Source of the DNA: an uncultured virus (IMG/VR IMGVR_UViG_3300042691_034458)
Lineage: Duplodnaviria > Heunggongvirae > Uroviricota > Caudoviricetes
Length of the DNA stretch: 64,000 bases
Direction: 5' to 3' (one strand)
IMG/VR virus record: IMGVR_UViG_3300042691_034458
Coordinates: 1-64,000 of that record
Part shown: piece after piece, positions 2-61,302 of the stretch
How positions within the stretch are numbered: the stretch's first letter is position 1
How the letters are laid out: each line of letters starts with the position of its first letter
The notes under the pieces: generated by a model
Databases searched by the model: none
What the model saw: only the letters and a program-made list of their open reading frames with translations
Told to the model about the DNA's origin: nothing
Position numbers and translations under genes: made by a program

Positions 2-337
2 GTTGGGGGAGATTTGAGTTTAGTAGGAACACCAATTCAATCCTTACCGGATAATCTTCATGTTGGGGGATATTTGGATTTATATGGAACACCAATTCAA
101 TCCTTACCGGATAATCTTCATGTTGGGGGAAGTTTGTATTTAAGAGGAACACCAATTCAATCCTTACCGGATAATCTTCATGTTGAGGGAGATTTGTTTT
201 TAGGTAAAACACCAATTCAATCCTTACCGAATAATCTTGACGTTAAGGGGACAATTTATATTAAAGGAACACCATTAAATGATAATGATGAATTGGTTAA
301 GAAATATGAAGAAAAATATAGAATTATTAGAGTTTAA
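2..337 (+). CDS. 5'-truncated 20-aa leucine-rich-repeat protein (LPDNLHVGGxLxLxGTPIQS family), copy A
   Basis: Frame is open from position 2 (VGGDLSLVGTP...). Four 60-nt repeats plus a C-cap matching that of 47779..48540. The true start lies upstream of the window. Confidence 0.85.
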   Translation, partial: VGGDLSLVGTPIQSLPDNLHVGGYLDLYGTPIQSLPDNLHVGGSLYLRGTPIQSLPDNLHVEGDLFLGKTPIQSLPNNLDVKGTIYIKGTPLNDNDELVKKYEEKYRIIRV

Positions 338-13625: not shown

Positions 13626-14348
13626 ATGAAAATCTTAGGACCAAACGAAATAGGACAAAGAGGTATTCTTATTGAAATGGATGCTGGTTATATTTCACCA
13701 AGTGATGAACGTAATTTAGCAATCATTAAAGAATCTAAAAACTTATTGGATTATTCAAAACCATTTGAATTTTATGCTGTATTACAAAAATACGGAGTAC
13801 CAAACAGAAATGGTAGAATTTATCCTGAAAGTATATTAAAAAGAGAATCTGAAAATTATTTAAAATTAATCAAACAAGGGAAAGCTATGAGTGAATTAAA
13901 TCACCCAGAATCTTCCCTTATTGATTTGGATAGAGTTTCACATCTTATTACAGATATGTGGTGGGACGGTCATATTTTAATGGGTAAATTAAAGTTATTA
14001 ACATCACCCGGATTCCATGAAAGAGGTATTGTATCAACAAAAGCGGACATTGCTGCTAATTTGTTAAGACACGGTGCAACTTTGGGTATTTCCTCAAGAG
14101 GTGTTGGTTCATTGGTTAAAAAGGGTGAACAAAATGAGGTTCAATCAGATTTTGAATTAATTTGTTTTGATTTGGTATCATCACCTTCAACACCGGGTGC
14201 GTATCTCTTTAGTGATGTTAATGATAGAAACAAATTTGAAGAGAATATTGAGGAAGAGAAAAAATTGAGACAGCAGCCTATTTCAGATAAAAAAGAAATT
14301 AAGTCACTTGACTTAATGAAAAGATTATCCGATTATTTGGGAAAATAA
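13626..14348 (+). CDS. gp21: Prohead core protease (T4 gp21-like)
   Basis: NRNGRIYP, ELNHP, GISSRGVGS and FDLVSSPSTPGA motifs; ATATTTAT at 13602-13609. Confidence 0.93.
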   Translation: MKILGPNEIGQRGILIEMDAGYISPSDERNLAIIKESKNLLDYSKPFEFYAVLQKYGVPNRNGRIYPESILKRESENYLKLIKQGKAMSELNHPESSLIDLDRVSHLITDMWWDGHILMGKLKLLTSPGFHERGIVSTKADIAANLLRHGATLGISSRGVGSLVKKGEQNEVQSDFELICFDLVSSPSTPGAYLFSDVNDRNKFEENIEEEKKLRQQPISDKKEIKSLDLMKRLSDYLGK

Positions 14349-14685: not shown

Positions 14686-16233
14686 ATGTCAGAAAAAAAA
14701 TCATTAGTAGAAGATACTCTAATCCAAATGAGAAATTTGGAGGAAGCTATCCAAGAAAATGCAAAAGGAATACTTGCTTCAACCATGAAGGAAGAAATCA
14801 GTGATTTAGTAAAAGAGTCTTTAAATGAGACTGAAACAGAAGAGGAAATGGATGAAATGGAAATGGAGTCCAAGACCGATGATAAAGTTGACGAGCAAGA
14901 GTCATCCGATTTAGAAATGGACATGGATATGGAAGATGAAGTTAGTGACGAATCTGAAGAAGAGTCTGATGAAGATTCAGAAGAGATGATGGGCGCTGAA
15001 ATGAATCTTGACATGGACGTAGAAGATGAAGTCCCGATGGACTTAACAAACGCATCAACAGAAGAGCTTTTAAAAGTTTTTAAAGCTATGGGTGAAGAAG
15101 ATGGTATTATCGTTAAAAAAGAAGATGATAAAATCCATCTAAAAGATGATTCAGAAGGTGTTGAATATATGATTGATTTAGGAGAAAGCATTAATGAACA
15201 ACCTCTTGATTTGGGCGATGAGTCTGAGGAAGAAGAATTTGACTTTAATTTAGATGATGAATCTGAAGATGAGGAATTTGAATTCGATGAGTTTGAAGAA
15301 AGAATGCCAATGCGTAAATCACATAGAATTCGCAAAATGAAAAGAGATGAAGAAATGCATGAACAATCATTTGCGGATGAGACAGAGTCTGAAAAACAAG
15401 CCGATATTGATGCGATGTTAGACGATATCTTTAATGAATCAGAAGTATCTGAGGAGGAAGAGGTTGTCTATGAAATTGAGCTAGATGAAGAGGATGATAA
15501 TGAAGATATGACGGAAGAAACTGAAGAAACAGATGAGGAAATGAATGAAACCTATGATTTAGAGGAAGCATTCAAACCAAAAATGTTCAAAGGTAAAAAT
15601 CCTGAAAATAAAACAAATAAAGGTCCGAAAAAGATGTTAATGAAAAAACCTACCGGAAAAATGTTTGGTATGACACCAAAAATCGGTAAAACAACAAAAA
15701 CATCGGAATCTGATGTAAAGAAAGTTGAGACCAAAGAAGCAGCAAGAACCTTGGGTATGGGTAGTAAATTTAGAAAAGGTGGTTTACCAAAACCTAAAGC
15801 TGCCCCAAGACATCTCGGAGAAGATTTTGATTTTGAAGCGATGAACGCTGAGTTAGTTTCTTTAAGAGAAAAAAATGAAGAATATAGAAAAGCATTAAAT
15901 ATCTTCAGAGAAAAACTTAATGAGGTTGCTATATTCAATTCAAATCTTGCTTATGCGACAAGACTTTTCACCGAACATTCAACTTCTAAGCAAGAAAAAA
16001 TTAATATTCTTAGAAGATTTGATGGTGTTGAGACAATTAAGGAATCTAAAAATCTTTACACAACAATAAAAGAGGAATTAAGTTCCAAGGGTGTTACACC
16101 AATAACCGAATCGATTGAGTCAAAAATTGAAAAAACTCCATCTAGCGGTTCTGCGGCTAATTTGATTGAGTCAAAAACTTATGAGAATCCGCAGTTCTTG
16201 AGAATGAAAGACCTCATGAATAAAATAAAATAA
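14686..16233 (+). CDS. Prohead core scaffold protein (gp22-like position and composition)
   Basis: Extremely Glu/Asp-rich with a coiled-coil C-terminus, between protease and MCP; ATATTTAT at 14661-14668. Confidence 0.8.
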   Translation: MSEKKSLVEDTLIQMRNLEEAIQENAKGILASTMKEEISDLVKESLNETETEEEMDEMEMESKTDDKVDEQESSDLEMDMDMEDEVSDESEEESDEDSEEMMGAEMNLDMDVEDEVPMDLTNASTEELLKVFKAMGEEDGIIVKKEDDKIHLKDDSEGVEYMIDLGESINEQPLDLGDESEEEEFDFNLDDESEDEEFEFDEFEERMPMRKSHRIRKMKRDEEMHEQSFADETESEKQADIDAMLDDIFNESEVSEEEEVVYEIELDEEDDNEDMTEETEETDEEMNETYDLEEAFKPKMFKGKNPENKTNKGPKKMLMKKPTGKMFGMTPKIGKTTKTSESDVKKVETKEAARTLGMGSKFRKGGLPKPKAAPRHLGEDFDFEAMNAELVSLREKNEEYRKALNIFREKLNEVAIFNSNLAYATRLFTEHSTSKQEKINILRRFDGVETIKESKNLYTTIKEELSSKGVTPITESIESKIEKTPSSGSAANLIESKTYENPQFLRMKDLMNKIK

Positions 16234-19908: not shown

Positions 19909-20113
19909 TGGTCATTATATATCTTAAAGCTTTGGATACAACTTCACTCTCCTCAAGAGAAAAGACTCCTCTTGAGTGTGCTGCTTTTATTGCTTGATTT
20001 AAACAATAAATTGCTTGTTCATTTGTCATTCCATTTGAAAAAGCATCCAAATCATTATTTGAATAATAATTTATTGAATTAAATAACGTACCTATTGGTG
20101 TTTTTTCTTCCAT
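19901..20113 (-). CDS. Hypothetical protein
   Basis: 70 aa with an A-rich start context. Confidence 0.65.
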   Translation of the reverse strand: MEEKTPIGTLFNSINYYSNNDLDAFSNGMTNEQAIYCLNQAIKAAHSRGVFSLEESEVVSKALRYIMTNE

Positions 20114-20172
20114 TTTTATTTAAATATATAAAAATTTATCTCGCATTCAAGATATTTATTGTAAAAACTTTT

Positions 20173-21774
20173 ATGAAAGTTAAAAAAGAAATAATTTTTA
20201 GATTTTTGGATTTAAGATTTAGTCGATATACGTTGGTTAAATCAAAATGTTCTGTTACTGGTGATTTGAGTTTTATCGTACCAGCTTGGGCAATGTATGC
20301 AATTGAATGCGGTAATTACGAGACATTAAGTGAAGAGGAAATTGAAAGTCTTAATGATTTTTTGGATGATTTGGTTAAAACTTATGGTAATGCTGTGTTA
20401 GCTTTTGGGGATGAATCATATTTTTCAACAATCAATGATATTGATAATTTAGGTGGTGACGTTTTTCAGGCTAGTTTAGTTCCAAGTGTAGTAAATACCT
20501 ATATTGTGGATTTAAATAACGATAAATTAATAATGAAACACGAATTTAAAAGTAATTATGTTTTTTTTAAGGATATAATATTTGAAATGAATTCTATTTT
20601 TAGTTTAAAAGAAGACGATTACAATTCACTTAGAGAAATTATTAATGAGTGGGTTGAGGACAGATTTAATATACCAAGAAGTTTATCGACATTTCATACA
20701 TTCTCAAAAATAAATTATCGTAACGATTTAATTTCATGTATAATGCGTAAGGCAGTTGAGACAAAAAAACTAGATTATCTTAATAATAAAAAAAATAATG
20801 TTTCAGAAAATTCAAGTTCTAGATTTGCTGGTGAATATAATGGACCGATTGAGTTGGGTTTAAGAAAGTGGAAAAATCCTGAACTTAAACCTTTTAGTGA
20901 AATTTCTTCGCATTTAGCAAATAACGATAGTAAAAGCAAAACACTTAAAGATAACATAAAACGTATTGTTGGAATGTGGGAAAAAGGTTCAGATGGAACA
21001 TATGATATACCAACACATGATGTTGATACAATTAATGAGGATTTAGCTGTTTGGTTTGGTAAGAAAAAGAAACCAAAAGGTAGTAAACAACCACAAGGTC
21101 CGTGGGTTAATATTTGCAAAAAAGATAAAAATGGTAAACATCCCCCATGCGGTAGAGGTGAAGCAAAAACATCTGCATATCCAAAATGTCGTGGATATGC
21201 TGCTGCTAGAAGAATGTCAGATGAAGCAAAAAGAAAAGCTTGTTCTCAAAAAAGAAGAGCGGAAAAAAAAGAACCAAAAACTGGAAAAGGAAATAAACCA
21301 ACAATGGTTTCACATAAAAAGAAAGTTAAAATTAAGGAATCCGACCTTTATAATATTATAAAGCGAGTTCTTCTTGAGCAGGAGGAAGAAAAAAGAACTG
21401 TTACATTTCCTGCGGGAGCATTTAAATCTTTCATAACATCATCAAATGAAAAATTTGTTAAGATTCTTAATAACAAATATGATAGAGTTATTGTTAGTGG
21501 AGATTTGGATTTAGATGAGACAGATATTAAGATTTTACCAAATAATCTTGAAGTTAAGGGTATTCTCTTCTTAAGAGGGTCTTTGATTAAAGAATTACCA
21601 GAAAATCTTAAAGTTAATGGACAAATAGATTTAAGAAGTACTAATATTAAATCTTTACCGAATAATCTTGTACATGAAAAAGGTTTTATTTGGATATTAG
21701 ACACACCGTTAAATTACAATGAAGAATTAATAAATCATTATGTGGATAAAAATTACGGGTTTTATAGATATTAA
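20173..21774 (+). CDS. Mosaic multidomain protein ending in LRR module copy C
   Basis: Start reassigned to ATG 20173 (ATATTTAT at 20152-20159). Distinct segments separated by VSE|N, INE|D and LLE|Q; basic Cys-containing domain (WVNICK..PPCGR..YPKCR); C-terminal LRR paralogous to 47779..48540. Confidence 0.75.
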   Translation: MKVKKEIIFRFLDLRFSRYTLVKSKCSVTGDLSFIVPAWAMYAIECGNYETLSEEEIESLNDFLDDLVKTYGNAVLAFGDESYFSTINDIDNLGGDVFQASLVPSVVNTYIVDLNNDKLIMKHEFKSNYVFFKDIIFEMNSIFSLKEDDYNSLREIINEWVEDRFNIPRSLSTFHTFSKINYRNDLISCIMRKAVETKKLDYLNNKKNNVSENSSSRFAGEYNGPIELGLRKWKNPELKPFSEISSHLANNDSKSKTLKDNIKRIVGMWEKGSDGTYDIPTHDVDTINEDLAVWFGKKKKPKGSKQPQGPWVNICKKDKNGKHPPCGRGEAKTSAYPKCRGYAAARRMSDEAKRKACSQKRRAEKKEPKTGKGNKPTMVSHKKKVKIKESDLYNIIKRVLLEQEEEKRTVTFPAGAFKSFITSSNEKFVKILNNKYDRVIVSGDLDLDETDIKILPNNLEVKGILFLRGSLIKELPENLKVNGQIDLRSTNIKSLPNNLVHEKGFIWILDTPLNYNEELINHYVDKNYGFYRY

Positions 21775-37759: not shown

Positions 37760-37762
37760 ACT

Positions 37763-38392: not shown

Positions 38393-38394
38393 AC

Positions 38395-39676: not shown

Positions 39677-39678
39677 AA

Positions 39679-40467: not shown

Positions 40468-40473
40468 TTGTTA

Positions 40474-41283: not shown

Positions 41284-41291
41284 ATCTTTAT

Positions 41292-42017
41292 TTAATTTTT
41301 ATACATAAAGTTTAATATATGTAAATCCTCGACATCACAAAAATCATATTGAGTCCTAATCCAATCACTTTCTTTTTTAGGGATACCGGTATCAGCTTGA
41401 CTTCTAACACACCTATCTTTCCAATCATCAAATGTTTTATGGTGATAATGATTTAATTGTGCAATATCGTCAGTCCCATTTTCATTAAATGGTCCAGTAA
41501 AATAATTTTTAGCTGTATTCATAATTTTTACATTCGGATAATGAGGACTAACCATAATACTATCTGATTGTAAATTTAGTATTGTTTTAATATGTTTATC
41601 AACATCTTTTTGTCTTATAGTAAATTGTTTAATTAATGAATTACTATTTTCACTTCTTGTCAACCTACCACAAGCGCCGAAAAAAACCCAATTAATTCCA
41701 ATACCATAAGGATTATTAAACTCGTTTATAAAATCTTTAATATTTTGATGTTTTTTTAAAACTAAAAATTCATCAACATCAAAGAAAGCTACCCAATCAT
41801 ATTTAGTTTTATATTTTTTAATAAAATCATTATACGCGGATATCTGTCTAGCAATACCATCATATTTTATTTTTTTAATAAAATCGTGTTCTAAATTACA
41901 AATCCAATCATTTTCATAAATGATTATATCATCAAAACCTAATTTTTTATGATACAATACCCATTCTTTTATATAGAAATCTTCCATTTTAGCTATACAA
42001 ACTAATGCAACTCTCAT
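41292..42017 (-). CDS. Glycosyltransferase, GT92/GT2-like
   Basis: YIKEWVLYH..LGFD.I.IYEN, WVAFFDVDEF and LNHY motifs. Confidence 0.85.
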   Translation of the reverse strand: MRVALVCIAKMEDFYIKEWVLYHKKLGFDDIIIYENDWICNLEHDFIKKIKYDGIARQISAYNDFIKKYKTKYDWVAFFDVDEFLVLKKHQNIKDFINEFNNPYGIGINWVFFGACGRLTRSENSNSLIKQFTIRQKDVDKHIKTILNLQSDSIMVSPHYPNVKIMNTAKNYFTGPFNENGTDDIAQLNHYHHKTFDDWKDRCVRSQADTGIPKKESDWIRTQYDFCDVEDLHILNFMYKN

Positions 42018-42018
42018 A

Positions 42019-42759
42019 TTATAACAATTTATTATAATTATTTATAAACTTTTGTTCACCAATTCCTTGTGTTTGATGACTATCAAATTGAAAATGTGTA
42101 ATTGTATTATTTAGTATTTTATATGGTATTTGATTTAACAAATAAAAAACACTAATACTTCTTTCAATCTCATGTCCGGAAAAAATTGATTTTTTAATAT
42201 CGTTAACTAAAATATCAACCCATTCCATGTATTCATTAAACCTATCAAGTTTAAACGTATGATTAGATGTCATACTGCAAATAGTATTTTTAGGTAAAGA
42301 CTCAATAAAATCAATTATATTAATATTATAGTTTTTAATCAAAGAAGTAATTAAATTTTGACTCCAAGGTGTATGACGTAAATATTCATATGAATGAACG
42401 TTATGTGGTATATAGCCAAAAATATCAAATTTTTTAGTTTCTATAACTTCATTTAAAATCTCCTCTAAATTAGATATTGTATTTATATCATATTCAAATA
42501 AGTTTATATACTTACCTTTAAGTAAATTATTTTTCCATAAAGCATACCAACCGGTATATGATGTTAATTTAGGATATTCTTCAATATTATTTTCTAAATT
42601 TCTTGCTATAATCACATTATCTAAATTTTCTAATTTAGATATATCGTTTTTACCTAAAAAAACATACGTTAAATTACTAAAATTATTAAATTTTTTATGT
42701 CTAATAAAATCTAAAATAATATCTTGATTATGAACAAATATAAATGTTTGAAACGTCAT
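42019..42759 (-). CDS. Putative glycosyltransferase-like protein
   Basis: FEYD and GHEIER motifs; lies inside the glycan cluster. Confidence 0.45.
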   Translation of the reverse strand: MTFQTFIFVHNQDIILDFIRHKKFNNFSNLTYVFLGKNDISKLENLDNVIIARNLENNIEEYPKLTSYTGWYALWKNNLLKGKYINLFEYDINTISNLEEILNEVIETKKFDIFGYIPHNVHSYEYLRHTPWSQNLITSLIKNYNINIIDFIESLPKNTICSMTSNHTFKLDRFNEYMEWVDILVNDIKKSIFSGHEIERSISVFYLLNQIPYKILNNTITHFQFDSHQTQGIGEQKFINNYNKLL

Positions 42760-42767
42760 GAATAAAC

Positions 42768-44267
42768 TTAATTAGTTATGAAAAACTTATTTAATTTTCT
42801 CATATTATCAATAACAAATGGTGCTAAATTTTTGTTATAGTCGTTATTCATTAAATAAGAATCCTCATCATTTTCTTTTCTAGTCTGAGACTCATAATGA
42901 TAAGAAACTAAATTACCATCCAAATAATTTTCAAAACCTAAAGTAAGGTAATTAAGATTTAATTCGACATCTTCAAAACATGATTGATATGTTTCATTAA
43001 ACATACCACATTTTTCAAATAAAGTCTTTTTAGTCATCATTAATCCGCCCGTATTACCAATTACTTTTTTAAGTGACGTTGAATGATTATAGTATGATTT
43101 AAATCCAACGTGTCCAAGAACAAATTTTTTATTCTTATCGAATCCTGCAAAGATTCCATCATGCTGAACCGTATTATCTCCGAAATGTAATCTACATCCA
43201 ACAGTTCCAGCTTTATTATTTTCTTTAAAAACTTTTAACATACCATAAATAACATTATTTAATAACTTAATATCGTTATTGCAAAATAATAAAAATTCAT
43301 AATCATTTGTAACATGATTTTTTACAACATCGTTATTAATTTTAGCAAAATTATAATAATCATATTCAATTAATTTAATATCACCGAGTGGTAAGATATT
43401 ATCTTTAATCCATTCTTTTTCATCCGCCGATGAACCAGTATCTGCAATAAAAATATCAAATAAGTTTGGATTGCAATGGTCATAAAAAGATTTAACACAA
43501 TCAAATAACATTTGAACCTTACCTTTAGTTGGGATTATTACCGCAACTTTACTGAAACCTTTTATTGACTTTTCTTTTATCTCAGGAACGAATATTTTTT
43601 CTGGTTTTAAATCTAATGGTAATTTACTTCCCCATTTTTCCAAGAATTTATTTTTGCTCTCCCAAAACTCTTGGTTTGGTTGTCCAATTGATTGATGTGT
43701 GATTTCAAAAGAAGATGTAACACCAATTTTAACTCCATCTAAATAATTAGGTACGCAAAATAAATGATCATAAAAATGGAATTTACCTATTGTTTCATCG
43801 AATCTATGTTTGATTTTATTTTTATCAAATGCAATAAACAATCCATCAATTGTTACAACGGGAATTAAAAATGGAAATTTTGGTGAATATTTACTTAACC
43901 ATTTCTTTTGACCCTCAGGGTGATGATAAACTTGACCAACCATTGTTTGTTGCATTCTTTCCCAATAAACACCTGATTCCGGAAAATAACAAGAACCAGC
44001 TTTACCAATTATACCAAAATCAGGATTTTCATTAAAATCTTTTGATAACTTTACTCCCCAGTTGGTTTCTAATTTTATATCATCATGAATCAAAACAACA
44101 ATATCATTGTTTGATTCTGAAATAATTTCATTATAAACAGTTGATAATGATTTAATTCCGGGATTAACTTTCTCAATAACTTGAACGTTTTTTAAACCAC
44201 AAGTATCGATGATGTATTTAGTAAAGTTTGGTTTACTAGATTTTGTACTATATCCGATTGTAATCAT
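42768..44267 (-). CDS. Two-domain GT2 glycosyltransferase
   Basis: VLIHDD...IDGLF..FDE..FHFYD (domain 1); VAVIIPT..DTGS..LFCNND..FEDVEL..HYES (domain 2). Confidence 0.85.
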   Translation of the reverse strand: MITIGYSTKSSKPNFTKYIIDTCGLKNVQVIEKVNPGIKSLSTVYNEIISESNNDIVVLIHDDIKLETNWGVKLSKDFNENPDFGIIGKAGSCYFPESGVYWERMQQTMVGQVYHHPEGQKKWLSKYSPKFPFLIPVVTIDGLFIAFDKNKIKHRFDETIGKFHFYDHLFCVPNYLDGVKIGVTSSFEITHQSIGQPNQEFWESKNKFLEKWGSKLPLDLKPEKIFVPEIKEKSIKGFSKVAVIIPTKGKVQMLFDCVKSFYDHCNPNLFDIFIADTGSSADEKEWIKDNILPLGDIKLIEYDYYNFAKINNDVVKNHVTNDYEFLLFCNNDIKLLNNVIYGMLKVFKENNKAGTVGCRLHFGDNTVQHDGIFAGFDKNKKFVLGHVGFKSYYNHSTSLKKVIGNTGGLMMTKKTLFEKCGMFNETYQSCFEDVELNLNYLTLGFENYLDGNLVSYHYESQTRKENDEDSYLMNNDYNKNLAPFVIDNMRKLNKFFITN

Positions 44268-44355
44268 TAAAATTTATTAAAAATATAAAAAATTTTCTTA
44301 AGAAAATCAATCTTTTTTTTTTGGATATATTTATAATGTATAAAACATTATAAAA

Positions 44356-44640
44356 ATGAGAACAAAAAATAAAAAACCAACAAGAATAACTGAAAAACAG
44401 TTAGTAGCAATACTTAAAAAAGTAATTAATGAGCAAGATTCTTCAGAATATGATGATAATGAAGATGAAAAAGAAGAACATATTAAATTTATTGAAGATG
44501 CGGTATATGATTCGGCAATGAGTATTATAGGAAATTTAATAGCGGTTATTGATGACAACTATGAAGAAGGTATTGTTTTTGCTTTAGAGGAATTGGATTC
44601 TATTAAAAAAATTATAATGGATGTAAAAACAAGTTATTAA
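44356..44640 (+). CDS. Leader-bearing acidic small protein
   Basis: RITEKQLVAILKKVINE|Q; ATATTTAT at 44327-44334. Confidence 0.75.
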   Translation: MRTKNKKPTRITEKQLVAILKKVINEQDSSEYDDNEDEKEEHIKFIEDAVYDSAMSIIGNLIAVIDDNYEEGIVFALEELDSIKKIIMDVKTSY

Positions 44641-44641
44641 T

Positions 44642-45055
44642 ATGAAAAATTTATTAAAAATTACAGAAGACGAAAAAAAGCATATTTTAACTATGCACAA
44701 AACCAAAATTAATGAAAGTGATTTTGGTAGAATTGCTGGCGCTATTGCGGCAACAGGAGCAATAATGACACTAATATTGGCGCAAAGAGCGGTCGATATT
44801 TATGATTCAGAAGGAAATTCTGTTGAGGCTAATGTTGGTGATACATATACTGGTATTGTAACTGAAATGGTAGCAAAACCAAAAATGGGATTTGTTGTTA
44901 AAATGGAAACAGATGATGGTCATACTTTAGATTTCATGACATATTACAATAATTTTGTAACAGGTGATAAAATTAAGGTTGTTATTGGACGAGAATTTAA
45001 TTCAGGTGGAATGATGGTGTTTCCTGATGTAACACACACAGAAAAAGTTAAATAA
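44642..45055 (+). CDS. Leader-bearing protein with one hydrophobic helix
   Basis: KITEDEKKHILTMH...INE|S followed by IAGAIAATGAIMTLILA. Confidence 0.75.
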   Translation: MKNLLKITEDEKKHILTMHKTKINESDFGRIAGAIAATGAIMTLILAQRAVDIYDSEGNSVEANVGDTYTGIVTEMVAKPKMGFVVKMETDDGHTLDFMTYYNNFVTGDKIKVVIGREFNSGGMMVFPDVTHTEKVK

Positions 45056-45076
45056 TAAGTTTTATATTTTTAATAA

Positions 45077-45114
45077 AAATTCCCCCACTAGTTTTTAGCT
45101 AATTGGGGGAATTT
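45077..45114. terminator. Hairpin terminator between convergent genes
   Basis: AAATTCCCCCA...TGGGGGAATTT inverted repeat. Confidence 0.75.
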
Positions 45115-45127
45115 ACTATTAAAAAAT

Positions 45128-45709
45128 TTAAATTCCAGTCGATCCAAACCCGTTTGAACCTCTTGTTTTTTCGTTTATTACGTCAACCTCAGAAACTGAA
45201 ACATAACCACCACAGATTGCAGGTGATAAAACACCTTGTCCAACCTTCATTCCCTTTTTAATAACAATATCATGACCATTGGTGTTAAACAATATAACTT
45301 TTACCTCTGAAGTGTATCCATTATCTATTGTCGCAGGAGAATTTAATACCATTAATCCCTGATTAATCGCTAGACCGCTTTTACTTCTAATTTGTAACTC
45401 ATGTCCAGCGGGTAAATCAAAAGCTAATCCAGTCGGAATTAAAGCCCTTCCAAACGGTCCAATTGTTACCTCTTCAGTCGAATGAAAATCAAATCCCGAA
45501 TCACCATCATAATTATATTTTGGTAAAACAGCATCGGGATGAAGTTTCTTAACGTTTAATTCAATTTTTGGTTGCGCCATGCTAAATAATGTTGTAAATT
45601 CATCAAGTTCAGAATCAATTTCATCACCAATAGTTTCTTGCCAATTAGGTGATTGCATTTTCTGTTTAAGTTGTTCTAATTTTTCTCTAAGTTCATCAAG
45701 ACTATCCAT
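45128..45709 (-). CDS. dut: dUTPase (trimeric) with N-terminal extension
   Basis: SGFD, RSKSGLA, TIDNGY, GQGV and RGSNGFGSTG motifs. Confidence 0.95.
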   Translation of the reverse strand: MDSLDELREKLEQLKQKMQSPNWQETIGDEIDSELDEFTTLFSMAQPKIELNVKKLHPDAVLPKYNYDGDSGFDFHSTEEVTIGPFGRALIPTGLAFDLPAGHELQIRSKSGLAINQGLMVLNSPATIDNGYTSEVKVILFNTNGHDIVIKKGMKVGQGVLSPAICGGYVSVSEVDVINEKTRGSNGFGSTGI

Positions 45710-45710
45710 G

Positions 45711-46409
45711 TTAATTTAATTTTTCAAGTTTAGATACGACCATCATTAATACCTCGACATCTTTCTCACAATATTCAGCAATTTCTTTAGTCCCCTTGCT
45801 CCAATAATGTTCATGTACTTTACTTCCATTTACTTCACCAGTTTTAGATGAGTCAACACCAAGAGAAGCACACATTAATTCGAGAGTTGCGATTGAGAAA
45901 TTATTACCATATTGCCAAAAATCTTTTGTATCAATTGCTTTAACCTCCCAAGGTTTTGTATCAAATGCGGGAAGAATAGCTGGTGGTTTTATTCCATTAA
46001 TAATCATTCGTTTACATAGCATTGGGATATCGAATAATTTAATATTATGACCACACAAACTAAAATCCATTTTTGCAACTTTATTAAGCAAAGCCTTAAC
46101 TTCACTTAATAATGTTTTTTCATCCTCATTTGAAAACGTTTGAATTTTAATTTCTCCATCAGGAGTTATAAAACCAAAGCTAGCAACAATTATTTTACCA
46201 AATTCAGGTAATAAAGCCGATTTACTTAAATAAAGTTCGTCAATTGTTAAATCTTTATCTTCAGGATATCGTTTTCTAAACCAGTCTTGGTATTTCTCAA
46301 ACTGAATCGCTAAACTTGGATGATTTTCCTTTAAGGTTGTGAAGTCTTTTTCAAGCCCAACCGTTTCCAAATCAAAAAAAAGGATTTTACTAATAGGTTT
46401 ATTAAACAT
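45711..46409 (-). CDS. PolB-related 3'-5' exonuclease
   Basis: FFDLETV, GHNIKLFDIP and YCEKDV DEDDy motifs. Confidence 0.9.
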   Translation of the reverse strand: MFNKPISKILFFDLETVGLEKDFTTLKENHPSLAIQFEKYQDWFRKRYPEDKDLTIDELYLSKSALLPEFGKIIVASFGFITPDGEIKIQTFSNEDEKTLLSEVKALLNKVAKMDFSLCGHNIKLFDIPMLCKRMIINGIKPPAILPAFDTKPWEVKAIDTKDFWQYGNNFSIATLELMCASLGVDSSKTGEVNGSKVHEHYWSKGTKEIAEYCEKDVEVLMMVVSKLEKLN

Positions 46410-46413
46410 TTTT

Positions 46414-47663
46414 TTAAATTATTGATTTATAAAATTCCGCTCTGTTTTTAGTAACAATTGATAATTCATATTTATCTTTGACTGTTTCATAAAGTCTTTC
46501 ACCAAGGTCTTTAGCCCAATTTGGATTTTGAATAAGTTTCTTCATGTACTTTGCCCAATCACCATGATTTCTATTTTCATTTACCAAAAGTGCATTACCA
46601 TCAACAAATTTACCATTTTCCAATGCATGGGTCAAGTCAATGGTATATGGACCAACATCTGAAGCTATAATTGCTTTCTTATAGAAACCCGCTTCAATAA
46701 CTTTAAGCTGCGATTTCATTCGATTAAACATATGATTCATAATTGGTGCTAAGGATACATCAAATTTTGTATAATTCTTTGCATATGATGTTATTGGTCG
46801 GGTCCAAACTCTTTCATATGGTTCATTCTTAAATTTAGTTGTATCAAATTCAACAAATTTATCCAATTCTTTTTTATATTCCGGTGAAACCAAATTGTAT
46901 TTATTTGTAAAAATTTCTTCATATTTAACCCACACCGTTTCATGTGGTTTAATTGGTCTTTTCTTTTGTTCACCAGTTTGCTGATTAATTTCAGTTATTT
47001 CACCTCTAGTATCAAAACCACAAAGGAAAACTTTCATTTTATCTTTTTCTGATGAAAGTGCGTTAAATGTACCATCCAACAATTTTAAATCATGTAAGTG
47101 AGATGAACCACCTAACCAACCAAAACGAAGTCTCTCATCTTCTTCTGTAACACCTTTAAATTGTTCTGTTTTTGTATCAATTGCATTTGGAAATACAACA
47201 ACATCATTATGGAATTTTCTTATTTGGTCAGCAAAAATTTCTGTTGTTGTTGTAATATATTTTGCATATCTAAGACTTTCAATAATCTTCTCATTAATTT
47301 TATGTTGTACAATTACCGAATGCAAAGGATGTTCTTTTGTGGGTAACCAATAATCATCGATATCTGCAATCGTGATAATACCCATATTGTTAAGCATTTT
47401 AACAATTTCTGGAGACCTATCATAATCTCTACCAATACTTCGATGGTAGTGAACAATTTGATATTGCTTCCAATAATTTAAATTATCAACTTGTGGGTCG
47501 TAATCGATATCCACATGAAAATCATCCGGATACATGTTTTGTAACATTATGTGGGGGTCTACTGATCTGTAGGAACCTAACCAACCCCCGAACGGTCAGA
47601 TGGGAGTACTAAGACTCGAATCTTTTCACGACCGTTAAGGGGCGAAATTTGTGTGTTTGTCAT
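46414..47663 (-). CDS. GT-B glycosyltransferase split across two frames (28-codon N-terminus 47663-47580, TAG at 47579-47577, body continuing in the -1 frame from 47577)
   Basis: Upstream ORF MTNTQ...KIRVLVLPSDRSGVG* supplies the missing first beta-strand and Gly loop. The downstream frame reads GSYRSVDPHIMLQNMYP...DIDDYW...GWLGGSSH...FNRMKSQLKVIEAG. Confidence 0.75.
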
Positions 47664-47778
47664 CTTTATCTATAAGATATAGTAATAATTTATTGTTTTT
47701 ATAAATTATAATCAAAATTTTTGATTAGTTCAAGTTTTTTATAATTTATTTTTTTAAACCAATAGAATATTTATAATT

Positions 47779-48540
47779 ATGAAAAAGATAAAATTAACAG
47801 AATCAGATTTATATAGAATTGTTAGAAAGGTTCTTCTTGAGCAAGAGGAAGAAAAGAGAAGTTTTACATTTTCTCCGGGAACATTTGCGTCTTTTATAAC
47901 ATCATCATCAGGTGAAAGATTTGTTAAACATCTTAATAACAAATATGATGAGGTTATTATTAATGGTGATTTGGATTTAGATGGAACACCAATTCAATCC
48001 TTACCTGATAATCTTCATGTTGGTGGGGATTTGAATTTATATGGAACACCAATTCAATCCTTACCGGATAATCTTTATGTTGGGAGAAATTTGGATTTAA
48101 GAGGAACACCAATTCAATCCTTACCGGATAATCTTTATGTTGGGAGAAATTTGGATTTACAAGGAACACCAATTCAATACTTACCGGATAATCTTCATGT
48201 TGGGGGAAGTTTGTGGTTAAATGGAACACCAATTCAATACTTACCGGATAATCTTCATGTTGGGGGAAGTTTGGATTTAAGTGGAACACCAATTCAATCC
48301 TTACCGGATAATCTTTATGTTGGGGGATATTTGAATTTACATGAAACACAAATTCAATCCTTACCGGATAATCTTTATGTTGGGGGATATTTGAATTTAC
48401 ATGAAACACAAATTCAATCCTTACCGGATAATCTTTATGTTGGGGGGACAATTTATATTAATGGAATACCTTTAAATGATAATGATAAGTTGGTTGCAAA
48501 ATATAAAGAAAAATATAGAATTGATAGAGCACTTATTTAA
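47779..48540 (+). CDS. Leader-bearing 20-aa LRR protein, copy B (8 repeats plus cap)
   Basis: MKKIKLTESDLYRIVRKVLLE|Q leader; 60-nt tandem repeats; ATATTTAT at 47767-47774. Confidence 0.9.
   Translation: MKKIKLTESDLYRIVRKVLLEQEEEKRSFTFSPGTFASFITSSSGERFVKHLNNKYDEVIINGDLDLDGTPIQSLPDNLHVGGDLNLYGTPIQSLPDNLYVGRNLDLRGTPIQSLPDNLYVGRNLDLQGTPIQYLPDNLHVGGSLWLNGTPIQYLPDNLHVGGSLDLSGTPIQSLPDNLYVGGYLNLHETQIQSLPDNLYVGGYLNLHETQIQSLPDNLYVGGTIYINGIPLNDNDKLVAKYKEKYRIDRALI
47962..48480 (+). repeat. Tandem 60-nt coding repeats, near-identical to those at 1-290
   Basis: Constant GGAACACCAATTCAATCCTTACCGGATAATCTT(C/T)ATGTTGGG block plus a variable NNN-TTG-NNN-TTA-NNN segment. Confidence 0.95.
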
Positions 48541-53699: not shown

Positions 53700-56432
53700 A
53701 TGGAAAAAAAACTAAATATTTTAGCACACGCCTCTTTTATTGGTAAAACCGGTTATGCTAATCATGCTAAATCATTTTTTTGCGCGTTAAATAAGTATGC
53801 TAATGTTAAAGTTAGAAATCTGACAGTAGGTGATAGTTGGTGTGGATTATCGGAAAAACCTCATGATAAAGAAGAGTATTTTACCGATGAAATGCGTAAT
53901 ATGCTTATACTGCAAACATTATACGAACAAGATAATACAAGAAAAGATTATCCAATATACGGTTACGATGGGTCTTTCATTCCTGATATTCATATCGTTT
54001 TAAATGATGTTAATAACCCATATTTTTATGATAACTATGATGGATATCGCATAGCTTATAATGTTTGGGAATCAACGGAATACCCAAAAGATTTTTTTGA
54101 AAGATTATTTTATTTTCATGAGGTTTGGGTACCATCTAAATGGCAAAAAGATAATTTAATTAAACAAGGTTACCCAAAGGAAAGAATTTCGGTTGTTCCA
54201 GAAGGTGTTGACCCTGAAGTTTTTAAACCAACAAATGAAATTGATTTATCAGAAAAGTTTACATTTTTACTTTTTGGTAGGTGGGAATATAGAAAATCAA
54301 CAAGTGAAATAATTAGAGCGTTTAATGAAGAATTTAAAAATGAGGATGTTAACTTAGTTGTTTGTGCAAATAATCCATTTGCTAATGATGGGTTTAAAAC
54401 AACTGAAGAAAGAATAATTGCAAATGGTTTGGAAAATAAAAATCTTAAAATAGTTAATTTTCCAACTAGAGAAGAATATATTAATTATTTAAAAAATGGT
54501 CATGTTTTTATTTCATGTGCTAGAAGTGAGGGGTGGAATCTACCTTTAATAGAAGCAATGGCTTGTGGTACGCCATCAATTTATTCAAACTGGGGAGCAC
54601 AACTTGAATTTGCTGATGGATTAGGAATTCCTGTTAAAGTTACTGATTTTGTTTCAGCTAAAAACCAAGATAATTCATTTGTTGGCGATTATATAGAACC
54701 AGATTTTAACGATTTGAAATTAAAAATGAGAATGGTCTATAATGATTATAAATCATTTAAAGAAAATGCTTTATTAGAATCTGAAACAATTCACAGAAAT
54801 TTTAATTGGGATTTGGTGGCTAAAAATGCTAATAATATTTTACAAAAAAAGGTAAATGACTTTGTTTTTGTTACTACCGGTAACGAAAATTATATGCCTC
54901 TTATTGAATGTTTAGTTAAGTCTTTAAATGAGTTTTCAAAATTTAAAATTATTGTTTATGGGATAAATTGTGATGTACCATTTGATTATCCAAATTTAAT
55001 AAAAAGAAGATTAAATATTGAAGAATACTCAGAACATGATAGGTGGTTTTGGAAGCAATACGCATGTATTGAGTCAATTAACGAATCATTTGAAAATTTT
55101 GTTTGGGTTGATGGGGACGTTGTTGCAAATTTTAATATTGATAATATAATCAATTATTTCCCTTATGTTGGGAATTATCCGCTATCTGACATACACAGAC
55201 AAAAAGAATTCTATGGATTTTTTTATGAAAATGGTGTTAAATATGAGCAACTATTTAATGAAAATCTTAGTAAATACTTAAATGTTACACCACATTTACC
55301 ATTTATGCACGTTTGTCTTTTCATTTACAATAAAACCTGCAAATGGTTTTTTGATGAGATTATAAACCTCTATAAATCAACAGATTTAAATAAATATAGG
55401 CATTTATTCTTATGGAATGATGAAGGTGCTGATAATGCAATTAGATCGAAGTTTAATTTAAAAAACCATTTACCGTTATCTAATTTTGATGTTTCATCAT
55501 ATGATGGCGAATCATATGAGTTTATTAATAACCAACTATCTGATTTTTATACATTTTGGGAGAAAGATGGTCCATATAATTTTAATAAAATTTATGGACT
55601 TCAATATATTCCTGAAAATAAAAAAGATATTATCTACTTCCACGGTAACAAAAATGTTGACGCAGCAAATAAAATGATTGATTTTATTAAAATAAAAAGA
55701 GACAATTCTTTTTACGAATCAAATAATTTTTATACTTCAAAAAATGTAATAACAGATTTTAGTGATATAAAAAATATTGAGGGCGGAACTATTTGGGTTG
55801 CTGAAAATTACGGTTGGTCACACGCAATATATCATGAAATTTATAACTTACAGGATTACTATTTAAGTAGAAAAAAACAAATAAATGATGGGGATATTGT
55901 TGTTGATTTAGGAGGTAATATTGGTATCTTCAATAGATGGGCTTATTCACAAGGAGCGTCTAAAGTTATCTCATTTGAACCAGATAGAAGATATTTTGAA
56001 TTATTGAAGAAAAACACAAGTCCTAATTCAATTCTTTTTAATGCGGCGATGTCTGATAGGATTGGGGAGTTGAGTCTATTTGAGAGCGACCATTTGGGTG
56101 GTTCAAATATATTTGGTGTGCCTAGTAACACAAAAAATTACAAGGTCCGGACTTATACATTAGATTTTTTATTTGATACAGATTTAATTACTCACATTGA
56201 CTTTTTAAAGGTTGACGTTGAGGGTGCAGAACATCTAATTTTTAAAGGAATTAGCGATAACAATTTATCTAAAGTTAAAACTATTTCAATGGAATATCAT
56301 CACTCACATTTTAATTTTGATGAAAAATTACGTGATGATTTTATTAATAGATTTGTTAGTCTTGGCTTCAATTCTTATCTTTTATTTATGGGGACAAATA
56401 ATGCATTACAAATGATATATTTTTATAGATAA
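53700..56432 (+). CDS. Three-domain protein: GT4 glycosyltransferase + GT-A-like domain + FkbM methyltransferase
   Basis: TGYANH, RSEGWNLPLIEAMACG (GT4); WVDGD and WNDEG (GT-A); VVDLGGNIG, FEP and LKVDVEGAE (FkbM). Confidence 0.85.
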   Translation: MEKKLNILAHASFIGKTGYANHAKSFFCALNKYANVKVRNLTVGDSWCGLSEKPHDKEEYFTDEMRNMLILQTLYEQDNTRKDYPIYGYDGSFIPDIHIVLNDVNNPYFYDNYDGYRIAYNVWESTEYPKDFFERLFYFHEVWVPSKWQKDNLIKQGYPKERISVVPEGVDPEVFKPTNEIDLSEKFTFLLFGRWEYRKSTSEIIRAFNEEFKNEDVNLVVCANNPFANDGFKTTEERIIANGLENKNLKIVNFPTREEYINYLKNGHVFISCARSEGWNLPLIEAMACGTPSIYSNWGAQLEFADGLGIPVKVTDFVSAKNQDNSFVGDYIEPDFNDLKLKMRMVYNDYKSFKENALLESETIHRNFNWDLVAKNANNILQKKVNDFVFVTTGNENYMPLIECLVKSLNEFSKFKIIVYGINCDVPFDYPNLIKRRLNIEEYSEHDRWFWKQYACIESINESFENFVWVDGDVVANFNIDNIINYFPYVGNYPLSDIHRQKEFYGFFYENGVKYEQLFNENLSKYLNVTPHLPFMHVCLFIYNKTCKWFFDEIINLYKSTDLNKYRHLFLWNDEGADNAIRSKFNLKNHLPLSNFDVSSYDGESYEFINNQLSDFYTFWEKDGPYNFNKIYGLQYIPENKKDIIYFHGNKNVDAANKMIDFIKIKRDNSFYESNNFYTSKNVITDFSDIKNIEGGTIWVAENYGWSHAIYHEIYNLQDYYLSRKKQINDGDIVVDLGGNIGIFNRWAYSQGASKVISFEPDRRYFELLKKNTSPNSILFNAAMSDRIGELSLFESDHLGGSNIFGVPSNTKNYKVRTYTLDFLFDTDLITHIDFLKVDVEGAEHLIFKGISDNNLSKVKTISMEYHHSHFNFDEKLRDDFINRFVSLGFNSYLLFMGTNNALQMIYFYR

Positions 56433-61281: not shown

Positions 61282-61302
61282 TATTTATATTTAAAAAAGA
61301 TT

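What the first reader, a model, noticed from the sequence alone, without database searches (positions are those of the whole stretch)
47779..48540. Hypervariable LRR family: constant DNA scaffold with three variable codons per repeat (VLR/TALE-like repertoire)
Seen: three dispersed paralogs (2..337, about 21316..21774, 47779..48540) built of 20-aa units. Copies A and B are nearly identical in DNA, including synonymous sites, across about 45 nt of each 60-nt unit, but vary at the x-L-x-L-x positions. A: DSV, YDY, SYR, DFG. B: DDD, DNY, NDR, NDQ, SWN, SDS, YNH, YNH. Repeat number also differs (B 8, C 3, A at least 4), and the caps are shared. Established: the xLxLx strand forms the concave ligand-binding face of LRR proteins, which is where lamprey VLRs diversify. 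Inference: a phage repertoire of modular binders shuffled by recombination between repeats. B and C carry the putative capsid-targeting leader, so they may be injected inhibitors of host defence proteins.
Basis: partly seen in the sequence, partly recalled or inferred. Interest (0 to 1): 0.85.

Follow-up and report, generated by a model that had tools for sequence, protein, structure and literature searches.

The report
Leader-tagged variable LRR family in phage
A large T4-like phage carries at least eleven scattered genes for leucine-rich-repeat binding proteins whose repeats are almost identical in DNA except at three surface codons, and all share a short N-terminal tag that may send them into the phage head.

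Summary
B (47779..48540) has eight 60-nt units. A (2..337) and the C module (about 21316..21774) are relatives, and a fourth copy lies at the end of the 73.5-kb record. A 256-kb assembly of the same phage (99.997% identical) holds at least 11 paralogs with 3-14 units each.

B is predicted to fold as an LRR solenoid (pLDDT 91.6); the nearest solved structure is Vibrio FlrP. Variability peaks at unit positions 3, 5 and 7, which are the canonical xLxLx strand. There pN/pS is 3.0, while constant codons show three-fold less synonymous change than the paralogs' own N-terminal regions. This indicates concerted evolution plus diversifying selection. Five of five bacterial and phage homologs checked show the same pattern, so it is a subfamily trait.

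The N-terminal leader is a portable tag. It also heads thioredoxin, DUF5872 and unknown proteins in large phages, and always ends in [L/I/V]-x-E, the T4 gp21-type cleavage motif. The window encodes that protease, and a promoter-like motif is shared with structural genes. Packaging and injection remain inferred.

Differences between samples fall almost only in these genes. Short-read assembly of such repeats is unreliable, so ongoing diversification is not shown.

The parts
47779..48540 (+). Gene B: complete family member, 253 aa (leader, N-cap, 8 LRR units, C-cap)
   Evidence: ORF; tandem repeat; AF2 pLDDT 91.6; LRR fold matches
47779..47841 (+). N-terminal leader, residues 1-21: amphipathic helix ending in L-L-E, a putative cleavable targeting tag
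   Evidence: Helix 8-23 in the model. The same leader heads non-LRR cargo. E21 and Q22 are invariant in alignment A1
47842..47961 (+). N-terminal cap of the LRR solenoid (one strand and two helices)
   Evidence: DSSP of the model: E28-31, H33-40, H45-55, E58-61
47962..48441 (+). Eight 60-nt LRR units; variable codons 3, 5, 7 of each unit
   Evidence: The only 2 differences from the sister assembly (48263, 48282) lie in unit 6
48442..48540 (+). C-terminal capping unit and tail, shared by the paralogs
   Evidence: Alignment A1
47767..47774 (+). Promoter-like motif ATATTTAT, 12 nt before the ATG
   Evidence: Of 127 occurrences in the 256-kb genome, 47 lie 8-45 nt upstream of a gene call on the same strand, against 8 of 127 for its reverse complement. 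It precedes the protease, scaffold, tail-lysozyme and collagen-fibre genes
2..337 (+). Gene A: 3' part only (4 units plus C-cap), cut by the contig start
   Evidence: Full-length form (272 aa) in the sister assembly
20173..21774 (+). Long ORF whose C-terminal module is family member C
   Evidence: The promoter-like motif lies 21 nt upstream of this ATG in the sister genome. phrog_23735 matches residues 310-371
21316..21774 (+). C module: internal leader-like segment, N-cap, 3 diverged LRR units, C-cap
   Evidence: leader HMM E 2.1e-08
44356..44640 (+). Small non-LRR ORF with a diverged copy of the leader and the promoter-like motif
   Evidence: weak, E 0.11; leader HMM E 4.5e-4
13626..14348 (+). 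T4 gp21-type prohead core protease (Peptidase_S77), the candidate enzyme for leader removal
   Evidence: Pfam PF03420 E 5.1e-22; phrog_207 E 5.7e-42

Best explanation
The window comes from a large (at least 256 kb) AT-rich phage with T4-type head genes. The phage carries a dispersed family of at least 11 small LRR proteins. Each has a 21-25 aa N-terminal leader, an N-cap, 3-14 units of 20 (sometimes 21) residues, and a C-cap.

Shown: the units form an LRR solenoid. Their DNA scaffold is kept nearly identical, including at synonymous sites, while codons 3, 5 and 7 (the canonical exposed xLxLx strand) and, less so, 1, 8 and 19 carry mostly non-synonymous differences rich in D, N, S, Y, W and R. 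Blocks and whole units are shared between paralogs.

Inferred mechanism: unequal crossing-over and gene conversion between units and paralogs homogenise the scaffold and reshuffle cassettes. Diversifying selection keeps the binding face varied. The result is a repertoire of binders with different specificities.

Further inference, less certain: the leader is a portable capsid-targeting and cleavage tag comparable to the T4 CTS. On this reading the proteins are made late, loaded into the prohead core, trimmed after Glu21 by the S77 protease, and delivered into the host with the DNA, where they bind host proteins.
For: Family and fold:
- 4 copies in the 73.5-kb record and 11 ORFs in the 99.997%-identical 256-kb assembly.
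- FlrP LRR at E 2.4e-29.
- AF2 pLDDT 91.6, pTM 0.82. Foldseek top hit is 8z5u FlrP (rmsd 1.5 A over 163 columns), followed by Leptospira, IpaH/SspH1 and VLR LRRs.

Evolutionary mode:
- Entropy is 2.59, 2.50 and 3.32 bits at positions 3, 5 and 7, against at most 0.73 at 14 positions (59 units).
- At positions 3, 5 and 7, pN is 0.55 and pS 0.18 (ratio 3.0).
- Constant codons have pS 0.045, against pS 0.134 for the leader plus N-cap of the same paralogs.
- 77 units comprise 65 distinct DNA units, and 10 unit types recur in more than one place. Exact shared blocks reach 123 nt (A-D), 119 nt (B-D) and 100 nt (A-P10). P10 has an internal 4-unit duplication.
- Relatives at about 93% identity have other N-cap types and unit strings at the same loci.
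- The 2 differences in 73,467 nt between two assemblies both lie in B unit 6.

Leader:
- The same N-terminus heads 3 non-LRR ORFs in this phage and unrelated cargo in other large viral contigs, including a thioredoxin (PF00085, E 1.3e-21) and a DUF5872 protein.
- All 14 distinct leaders listed end in [L/I/V]-x-E.
- T4 gp21 cuts after Glu at ITE and LTE, and T4 internal proteins share only a CTS (passages of PMC5694885, and PMC3012670).
- An S77 protease gene is in the window and in 3 of 5 other leader-bearing records; the 2 without it are 17% and 37% complete.
- The ATATTTAT motif is shared with structural genes.
Against: - No virion proteome, transcript or cleavage data exist; the phage is uncultured.
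- The leader has no sequence similarity to the T4 CTS. It is about twice as long.
- In C the leader is internal.
- That ATATTTAT marks late genes is inferred only from the genes it precedes.
- The mature proteins are mostly acidic (pI 4.7-5.6 for 6 of 9), which is not what is recalled for the T4 internal proteins.
- The Edwardsiella phage Edno5 homolog has no leader and sits in an early lambdoid operon, so this LRR type can work without packaging.
- Unit order, unit number and the between-sample differences come from short-read assemblies, which are known to misbuild such repeats (PMC11761791, abstract and passages).
- Exposure of positions 3, 5 and 7 was judged from the alignment to canonical LRRs and DSSP, not from model coordinates, which were not available to scripts.
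Confidence: 0.55

Rival explanations
1. The proteins are external virion adhesins. The conserved N-terminal helix docks them onto the capsid, collar or fibres, and the variable LRR face binds host or environmental surface structures, broadening or tuning adsorption.
For: The promoter-like motif shared with structural genes fits any virion protein. In phage Goslar a conserved N-terminal module (DUF7941) carries varied carbohydrate-binding and LRR/beta-helix domains proposed for host recognition (PMC13742148, passages). The window is rich in glycosyltransferases and has a collagen-like fibre gene. The weak Pfam match of B is to a putative adhesive domain (PF20597, 26.9 bits).
Against: The same leader heads a thioredoxin and small acidic proteins, which are unlikely surface adhesins. 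The family genes are scattered, not placed in tail or fibre modules. The invariant [L/I/V]-x-E end suits cleavage more than anchoring.
Confidence: 0.17
2. The proteins stay in the infected cell and are not packaged. They act as cytoplasmic binders of host or phage proteins, and the leader serves another purpose such as localisation, timing, turnover or a conserved translation-initiation region.
For: The Edno5 homolog lies between the immunity region and CIII/exo/bet, a typical early accessory position, and has no leader. Bacterial homologs carry a C-terminal domain instead of a leader. About 12-30 nt upstream of the ATG and the first codons are conserved at DNA level among paralogs.
Against: This does not explain why the leader always ends in the T4-protease motif at a fixed distance from the N-terminus. 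It also does not explain the co-occurrence with S77 protease genes.
Confidence: 0.2
3. The apparent between-sample variation (repeat number, chimeric N-termini, the two substitutions in B) is produced by short-read assemblers taking wrong paths through near-identical repeats. On this reading the family is diverse but static.
For: Both ends of the 73.5-kb record and the start of the 256-kb record break inside family genes. The variant contigs L012 and L013 start inside the gene and switch from A to D exactly at the shared 123-nt block. P10 appears with 14, 12 or 10 units in three assemblies, and the 10-unit form equals collapse of a perfect 243-nt duplication. Logan contigs break the array into 75-160-nt pieces. 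Illumina assemblies of such repeats are reported as unreliable (PMC11761791).
Against: This cannot explain the differences between units and paralogs themselves, the pN/pS pattern, or the different arrays in relatives at 93% identity. B was assembled identically three times, apart from 2 sites.
Confidence: 0.4
4. A targeted mutagenesis system, such as a diversity-generating retroelement, writes the variable codons.
For: Variation is confined to fixed codons in an otherwise constant sequence.
Against: No reverse transcriptase (PF00078) was found in the 256-kb, 85%-complete genome, while controls rang in 3 of 14 genomes. Variable codons differ at all three codon positions and involve all four bases, not adenines alone. 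There are dozens of targets rather than one variable/template repeat pair.
Confidence: 0.02

Closest known systems
FlrP, LRR protein of the Vibrio polar flagellar motor (PDB 8Z5U/8Z5W; bioRxiv 10.64898/2025.12.04.692373, passages read)
   Same: Closest solved relative: E 2.4e-29, 35% identity, rmsd 1.5 A. Same short unit with a V-G-G-x-L-x-L strand and an L-P turn; beta-solenoid LRR.
   Different: FlrP is a single periplasmic structural protein with a Sec signal that binds the flagellar rod. It has diverged repeats, no leader, no multigene family and no near-identical DNA units.
T4 internal proteins (IPI-III, Alt) with the capsid targeting sequence and gp21 processing
   Same: The logic is the same: unrelated cargo sharing only a short N-terminal tag, a T4-type prohead protease that cuts after Glu in I/L-x-E, and a proposed role against host defence (PMC3012670 and PMC5694885, passages).
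   Different: No sequence similarity to the T4 CTS was seen or tested. The leader is about 21 residues rather than about 10. The cargo is a repeat-protein family. Packaging and cleavage are untested here.
High-internal-conservation (HIC) repeats of fungal NLRs (Podospora HET-D/HET-E WD40)
   Same: Repeats kept 80-100% identical by concerted evolution. A few codons per repeat are hypervariable, under diversifying selection and on the binding surface. Repeats are gained, lost and shuffled between paralogs, and short reads misassemble them (PMC11761791, abstract and passages).
   Different: WD40 propellers in eukaryotic immune receptors, not LRRs in a phage. Their polymorphism has been verified by long reads and genetics.
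Lamprey variable lymphocyte receptors and repebodies
   Same: LRR solenoid with diversity on the concave xLxLx strand. Weak direct sequence matches (E 6e-6 to 4e-3) and fold matches.
   Different: Their units are 24 residues. VLR diversity arises by somatic cassette assembly in lymphocytes; here it is germline paralogs and recombination.
TALE repeats
   Same: Near-identical tandem repeats with specificity residues at fixed positions. That TALE arrays are recombination-prone is recalled, not checked here.
   Different: TALE repeats are alpha-helical, 33-35 residues long and read DNA bases. There is no fold or sequence relation.
Leaderless homologs: Edwardsiella phage Edno5 gp47 and bacterial 'LRR domain-containing proteins' (Methylocystis, Flavobacterium, Clostridia MAG)
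   Same: Same unit and the same constant scaffold with variable positions 3, 5 and 7, in 5 of 5 examined.
   Different: No leader. They have an extra uncharacterised C-terminal domain, occur as single genes, and in Edno5 sit in an early-operon position.

Membership tests
Leucine-rich repeat (LRR) superfamily | Tandem 20-30-residue units with the LxxLxLxx(N/C/T)xL core | tested here: met
   The unit has L4, L6, T9, I11, L14 and P15. HMMER aligns it to the repebody/VLR core. B itself reaches no Pfam LRR model; its only match over a cut-off is PF20597 at 26.9 bits. Homologs carry weak LRR_1, LRR_4 and LRR_14 matches, a few over the curated cut-off.
Leucine-rich repeat (LRR) superfamily | Solenoid fold with one beta-strand per unit forming a continuous sheet | tested here: met
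   AF2 pLDDT 91.6. The Foldseek matches at E <= 0.001 are LRR proteins, and the best is FlrP with TM 0.86 normalised to the target.
T4-type capsid-targeted (CTS) internal proteins | Short N-terminal tag shared by otherwise unrelated proteins of the phage | tested here: met
   The leader occurs on 10 LRR paralogs and 3 non-LRR ORFs in the 256-kb genome, and on thioredoxin, DUF5872 and unknown proteins in another 282-kb phage.
T4-type capsid-targeted (CTS) internal proteins | Tag ends at a prohead-protease site (I/L-x-E) and the phage encodes a gp21-type protease | tested here: met
   [L/I/V]-x-E occurs in 14 of 14 distinct leaders. S77 protease at 13626..14348. Actual cleavage was not tested.
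T4-type capsid-targeted (CTS) internal proteins | Protein present inside the mature head and ejected into the host | not testable with these tools
   The phage is uncultured and no proteome exists. tblastn with the first 62 residues (leader plus N-cap) found no deposited phage at E <= 5.
HIC-type repeat arrays (concerted evolution plus diversifying selection) | Repeats at least about 80% identical within and between paralogs, beyond what the age of the paralogs predicts | tested here: met
   TRF 91% matches. Constant codons have pS 0.045, against 0.134 in the leader plus N-cap of the same genes.
HIC-type repeat arrays (concerted evolution plus diversifying selection) | A few hypervariable codons with excess non-synonymous change on the binding surface | tested here: met
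   pN/pS is 3.0 at positions 3, 5 and 7. Surface placement rests on alignment to canonical LRRs, not on coordinates.
HIC-type repeat arrays (concerted evolution plus diversifying selection) | Repeat-number and repeat-order polymorphism in natural populations | tested here: inconclusive
   P10 appears with 14, 12 or 10 units, and there are A/D chimeras with identical flanks. These are short-read assemblies, and Logan contigs do not span the array.
Diversity-generating retroelement target | Reverse transcriptase and a template repeat; adenine-specific changes | tested here: not met
   No RVT_1 match in the 256 kb. Changes involve all bases.
TALE / VLR systems (membership, not analogy) | TALE: 33-35-aa helical repeat with a diresidue. 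VLR: somatic assembly from flanking cassettes | tested here: not met
   The unit is a 20-aa LRR. The genes are complete germline ORFs, most with a promoter-like motif directly before the ATG.

The most novel reading that the evidence does not exclude
A T4-like jumbo phage uses a portable, protease-cleavable N-terminal tag to load its head with a repertoire of at least eleven LRR binders. These binders are continually reshuffled by recombination and diversified on their binding face. They are injected ahead of gene expression as a ready-made, evolving set of inhibitors of host defence proteins. This would be a viral counterpart of an immune-receptor repertoire, with the same tag also delivering enzymes such as thioredoxin in related phages.
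Probability: 0.27. Interest if true: 0.85.

Novelty: new variant of a known kind. Interest (0 to 1): 0.68.

Why it matters
If the reading holds, three known ideas meet in one uncultured phage lineage: LRR binders, repeat arrays kept uniform by recombination but varied at a few surface codons, and tag-directed loading of proteins into T4-type heads.

It would show that phages, and not only cellular immune systems, maintain recombining repertoires of recognition proteins. It would also extend the T4 picture of diverse internal proteins behind one targeting sequence to a whole multigene family.

On the practical side, the leader is a candidate tag for loading cargo into large phage heads. The 20-residue unit is a compact natural scaffold with three to six specificity positions.

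The finding also warns that such genes break short-read metagenome assemblies, so their diversity is likely under-reported. I found no paper describing such a family in three full-text searches, in a library that lacks most subscription journals.

Tried and rejected
- Complex prediction of the first 62 residues of B (leader plus N-cap) with the scaffold-like protein (14686..16233) and the S77 protease gave no verdict (score 0.00, controls not run). This is no evidence either way.
- Public runs: 24 rows hold part of the stretch, all kept as Logan contigs. Laying 4 of them showed that no record spans the array. Pieces of 75-160 nt come from all paralogs together, so neither the 48263/48282 variants nor the unit order could be resolved.
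- ESM Atlas search with residues 1-62 gave no usable hit.
- tblastn of the first 62 residues (leader plus N-cap) against 50,697 deposited phage records gave no match at E <= 5.
- PHROGs found no family for B or A.
- Earlier findings of this scan: none for this genome or sequence.
- A DGR was rejected because no reverse transcriptase was found.
- An idea that contig-end copies A and D are two halves of one gene on a circular record was rejected. The sister assembly shows them as separate full genes at 42879..43694 and 116421..117536.
- Net charge and pI of the mature proteins were computed and judged not diagnostic.
- Rfam scan and folding of the GC-rich spacer upstream of B: no family, z -1.86.
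- The Arch Virol 2021 review of LRRs in dsDNA viruses was seen only as a reference in other papers and was not read.
Full report
**What the window is**

The window is AT-rich (25-36% GC) and has no tRNA genes. It encodes:
- a T4-type large terminase,
- a gp20-type portal,
- a gp23-type major capsid protein,
- an S77 prohead protease,
- an acidic scaffold-like protein,
- a tail lysozyme/M23 peptidase,
- a collagen-like fibre protein,
- PhoH,
- many glycosyltransferases.

The capsid protein is nearest (42-46% identity) to those of Microcystis phage Mel-JY01, Flavobacterium phage immuto and two huge uncultured phages.

The window is bases 1-64000 of a 73,467-bp IMG/VR record with an estimated completeness of 24%. 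A 256,029-bp record, G001 (85% complete), contains the whole 73.5 kb at 99.997% identity, with 2 mismatches and no gaps. I used G001 as the genome of the same phage.

**Checking the observation**

B is a 253-aa ORF at 47779..48540. It holds a 60-nt tandem array of 8.0 copies at 91% identity. A (2..337) is the 3' end of a gene cut by the contig start. The C module (about 21316..21774) has three diverged units and shares both caps.

Over the 12 units of A and B, 39 of 60 nucleotide columns are invariant, and 13 of 17 third-codon positions in the non-variable codons are invariant.

Three corrections apply:
- C is the C-terminal module of a 559-aa frame, 20095..21774. The promoter-like motif sits before the ATG at 20173, not before the internal leader.
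- A fourth copy, D, lies at 73061..73465 of the record and is cut by the contig end.
- A and D are not two halves of one gene. In G001 they are separate full genes of 272 and 372 aa.

**Size of the family**

G001 has 11 ORFs of the family, at 2-619 (cut by the contig start), 635-1111, 26444-27142, 42879-43694 (A), 64679-65131 (C module), 91139-91897 (B), 116421-117536 (D), 146940-147653, 152091-152846, 161169-162302 and 226950-227519. A weaker LRR-like ORF lies near 222.3 kb.

Ten of these paralogs give 77 units, of which 65 are distinct at DNA level.

Beyond this phage the repeat type is very common:
- 5,588 clusters at 50% identity match B at E <= 0.001, and 409 at E <= 1e-30.
- These include chromosomal proteins of Methylocystis, Flavobacterium and a Clostridia MAG.
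- They also include gp47 of the temperate Edwardsiella phage Edno5, at 59% identity over residues 78-222.

**Fold**

phmmer against PDB sequences finds the LRR protein FlrP of the Vibrio polar flagellar motor at E 2.4e-29, and repebodies and lamprey VLRs at 6e-6 to 4e-3. The FlrP paper was read in passages.

AlphaFold2 on a 16-sequence alignment gives pLDDT 91.6 and pTM 0.82.

Foldseek ranks FlrP first (rmsd 1.5 A over 163 columns), followed by Leptospira LRRs, IpaH/SspH1 LRR domains, SHOC2, and later VLRs and repebodies.

In unit numbering, L4, L6, T9, I11, L14 and P15 match the canonical LxxLxLxxNxLxxLP core. I could not read the model coordinates in a script, so surface exposure rests on this alignment and on established LRR structure.

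**Where and how the units vary**

Over 59 canonical units of seven paralogs:
- Amino-acid entropy is 2.59, 2.50 and 3.32 bits at positions 3, 5 and 7.
- It is 1.42, 1.59 and 1.78 bits at positions 1, 8 and 19.
- It is at most 0.73 bits at the other 14 positions.
- The variable residues are mainly S, N, D, Y, W, R, E, Q and V.

Nei-Gojobori counts over all unit pairs:

| Codon set | pN | pS | pN/pS |
|---|---|---|---|
| Positions 3, 5, 7 | 0.55 | 0.18 | 3.0 |
| Positions 1, 2, 8, 19 | 0.32 | 0.17 | 1.9 |
| 13 constant codons | 0.052 | 0.045 | 1.15 |

Synonymous divergence of the repeat scaffold is therefore about three times lower than that of the unique part of the same genes. That is the signature of homogenisation (concerted evolution), while the three face codons carry an excess of amino-acid change.

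These are crude counts on short, partly saturated units, not a likelihood test.

**Exchange between units and paralogs**

- Ten unit types recur as identical DNA in more than one place.
- Exact shared blocks reach 123 nt (A-D), 119 nt (B-D) and 100 nt (A-P10).
- The 14-unit paralog at 161-162 kb contains a perfect 4-unit tandem duplication.
- The two mismatches between the two assemblies of the phage both lie in B unit 6: 48263 Gly>Glu and 48282 Ser>Arg. The G001 version makes that unit's cassette match a unit of D that follows the same neighbouring unit. This fits a small conversion event or an assembly cross-over.

**Variation between samples and relatives**

Of the 43 IMG/VR loci, 33 align to G001 over at least 1 kb. 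In the 9 near-identical alignments that were not 100% identical, 208 of 211 differences lie inside family genes. Two more lie 3-4 nt before D's ATG, and one lies elsewhere.

The variants are not independent and many sit near contig ends:
- L012 and L013 are the same A-N-terminus/D-body chimera, joined at the shared 123-nt block.
- The 161-kb paralog was assembled with 14, 12 and 10 units in three assemblies.

Two more distant relatives (flanks 92-94% identical) have a different N-cap type and different unit strings at the orthologous loci.

B, in contrast, is the same in three assemblies of the near-clonal population, so nothing points to hypermutation.

A preprint on fungal NLR repeats of the same evolutionary type states that such arrays are recovered correctly by long reads but not by Illumina assemblies (PMC11761791, abstract and passages). 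The public runs I could lay are kept as contigs that shatter in the array. Ongoing diversification is therefore plausible but not shown.

**Not a retroelement**

No reverse transcriptase is found in G001. The variable codons change at all codon positions and involve all four bases.

**The pattern is a subfamily trait**

In all 5 homologs examined (Methylocystis, Clostridia MAG, Flavobacterium, one metagenomic protein and Edno5 gp47), entropy is highest at positions 3, 5 and 7. In 4 of the 5, most other positions are invariant.

What is special in this phage is the expansion to at least 11 genes, the greater diversity of the face residues, and the leader.

**The leader**

All paralogs except the cut one and C begin with the same 21-25 residues; in B the first eight are MKKIKLTE, and E21 and Q22 are invariant in alignment A1.

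Within the 73.5-kb record only family members match it strongly. A leader profile, however, also finds three non-LRR ORFs in G001. One of them is in the window at 44356..44640.

In other large viral contigs the same N-terminus heads unrelated proteins. In a 282-kb, 96%-complete phage at least seven ORFs carry it, including a thioredoxin (PF00085, E 1.3e-21) and a DUF5872 protein.

All 14 distinct leaders listed end the helix with [L/I/V]-x-E, at residue 20-22.

T4-family prohead proteases cut after Glu. T4 Alt is cut at ITE and LTE, and T4 internal proteins are a diverse set sharing only a capsid targeting sequence (PMC5694885 and PMC3012670, passages).

The window encodes an S77 protease. So do 3 of 5 other leader-bearing records; the two without it are 17% and 37% complete.

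These facts make a cleavable targeting tag the best reading, but no result shows cleavage or packaging. In C the segment is internal, which would fit processing of a longer precursor but is not what a pure N-terminal signal predicts.

**Expression signal**

An oriented motif, ATATTTAT, occurs 127 times in G001. Of these, 47 (37%) lie 8-45 nt upstream of a gene call on the same strand. For its reverse complement the figure is 8 of 127, and for four other AT-rich octamers it ranges from 9% to 33%, the highest being the overlapping TATTTATA.

The motif precedes the protease, scaffold-like, tail-lysozyme and collagen-fibre genes, usually 21-29 nt before the ATG.

Seven of nine leader-first paralogs have it exactly, only 12 nt before the ATG. 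One has a single mismatch, and one follows its neighbour without it.

I infer co-expression with virion genes, possibly on very short 5' leaders. That this is a late promoter is an inference from the genes it precedes.

**Function**

The shown facts support a repertoire of protein binders with different specificities. Where they act is open. I rank three readings:
- Packaged and injected binders, about 0.35-0.4 on its own. This rests on the portable tag on enzymes, the protease motif and the T4 precedent.
- Cytoplasmic binders, about 0.2. The Edno5 homolog is an early-operon gene without a leader.
- Surface adhesins, about 0.17. The Goslar DUF7941 family is the precedent.

**Novelty**

LRR proteins in phages, HIC-type repeats and the T4 CTS are each known. 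I found no description of a leader-tagged, multi-paralog, HIC-type LRR family in a phage in three full-text searches. The library misses most subscription journals, and I did not read the 2021 review of viral LRRs.

I class this as a new variant of known kinds, with solid anatomy and an untested mechanism.

Noticed in passing
window 1 and record end (73061-73465); G001 start: Both ends of the 73.5-kb record and the start of the 256-kb sister record break inside family genes. These repeats fragment short-read assemblies and probably hide similar families elsewhere.
   Followed up: yes
window-wide, e.g. 13600-13625, 14655-14685, 1620-1652, 61275-61302, 30839-31225 (-): An oriented promoter-like octamer, ATATTTAT, lies 12-45 nt upstream of many genes, including head, tail and fibre genes. 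It is 37% gene-proximal, against 6% for its reverse complement. A second class of genes has it only 12 nt before the ATG, suggesting near-leaderless mRNAs.
   Followed up: partly
L088:11367-11774 (G002, 282-kb viral record): A thioredoxin carries the same N-terminal leader as the LRR family. Several other leader-bearing small ORFs cluster around 151-155 kb of that record.
   Followed up: partly
window 9199-12339: The T4-type portal gene is 1046 aa. An intein-like insert matches Intein_splicing at 34 bits (just under the cut-off) and an HNH endonuclease domain, splitting the portal match.
   Followed up: no
window 35249-37069 (-): The PhoH-like gene is interrupted by a LAGLIDADG/homing-endonuclease segment, probably an intein. 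PHROG matches to intein-bearing terminases, primases and helicase loaders fit this.
   Followed up: no
window 18191-19663: A Mom-like DNA-modification domain is fused to an endonuclease VII-like N-terminal part. It suggests modified DNA in this phage.
   Followed up: no
window 37157-47547 (-) and 53700-60380 (+): Two large blocks of glycosyltransferase and methyltransferase genes, including 910- and 911-aa multidomain enzymes. B sits alone on the + strand between minus-strand genes.
   Followed up: no
window 47545-47665 (-): A GC-rich spacer of about 110 nt lies between B's upstream region and the start of the minus-strand glycosyltransferase gene. It folds at -33.1 kcal/mol but z is only -1.86, and there is no Rfam match.
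   Followed up: yes
window 20173-21300 (N-terminal part of the C-containing ORF): Upstream of the C module the long ORF has a basic, Cys-containing stretch (phrog_23735). It resembles the DUF5872-like motif seen on leader-bearing proteins of other phages.
   Followed up: partly
protein P0043 (176 aa, seen on 4 contigs, longest 155 kb): This protein joins the N-terminus and first units of the 161-kb paralog (minus strand) to the C-terminal end of A (plus strand). If real, recombination between inverted paralogs would invert about 118 kb of the genome. It may also be an assembly chimera.
   Followed up: no
window 61303-62571: A collagen-like G-x-y repeat protein (Collagen, E 1.2e-41) with many PHROG matches to tail-fibre families. 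It has its own internal DNA repeats of 9-90 nt periods.
   Followed up: no
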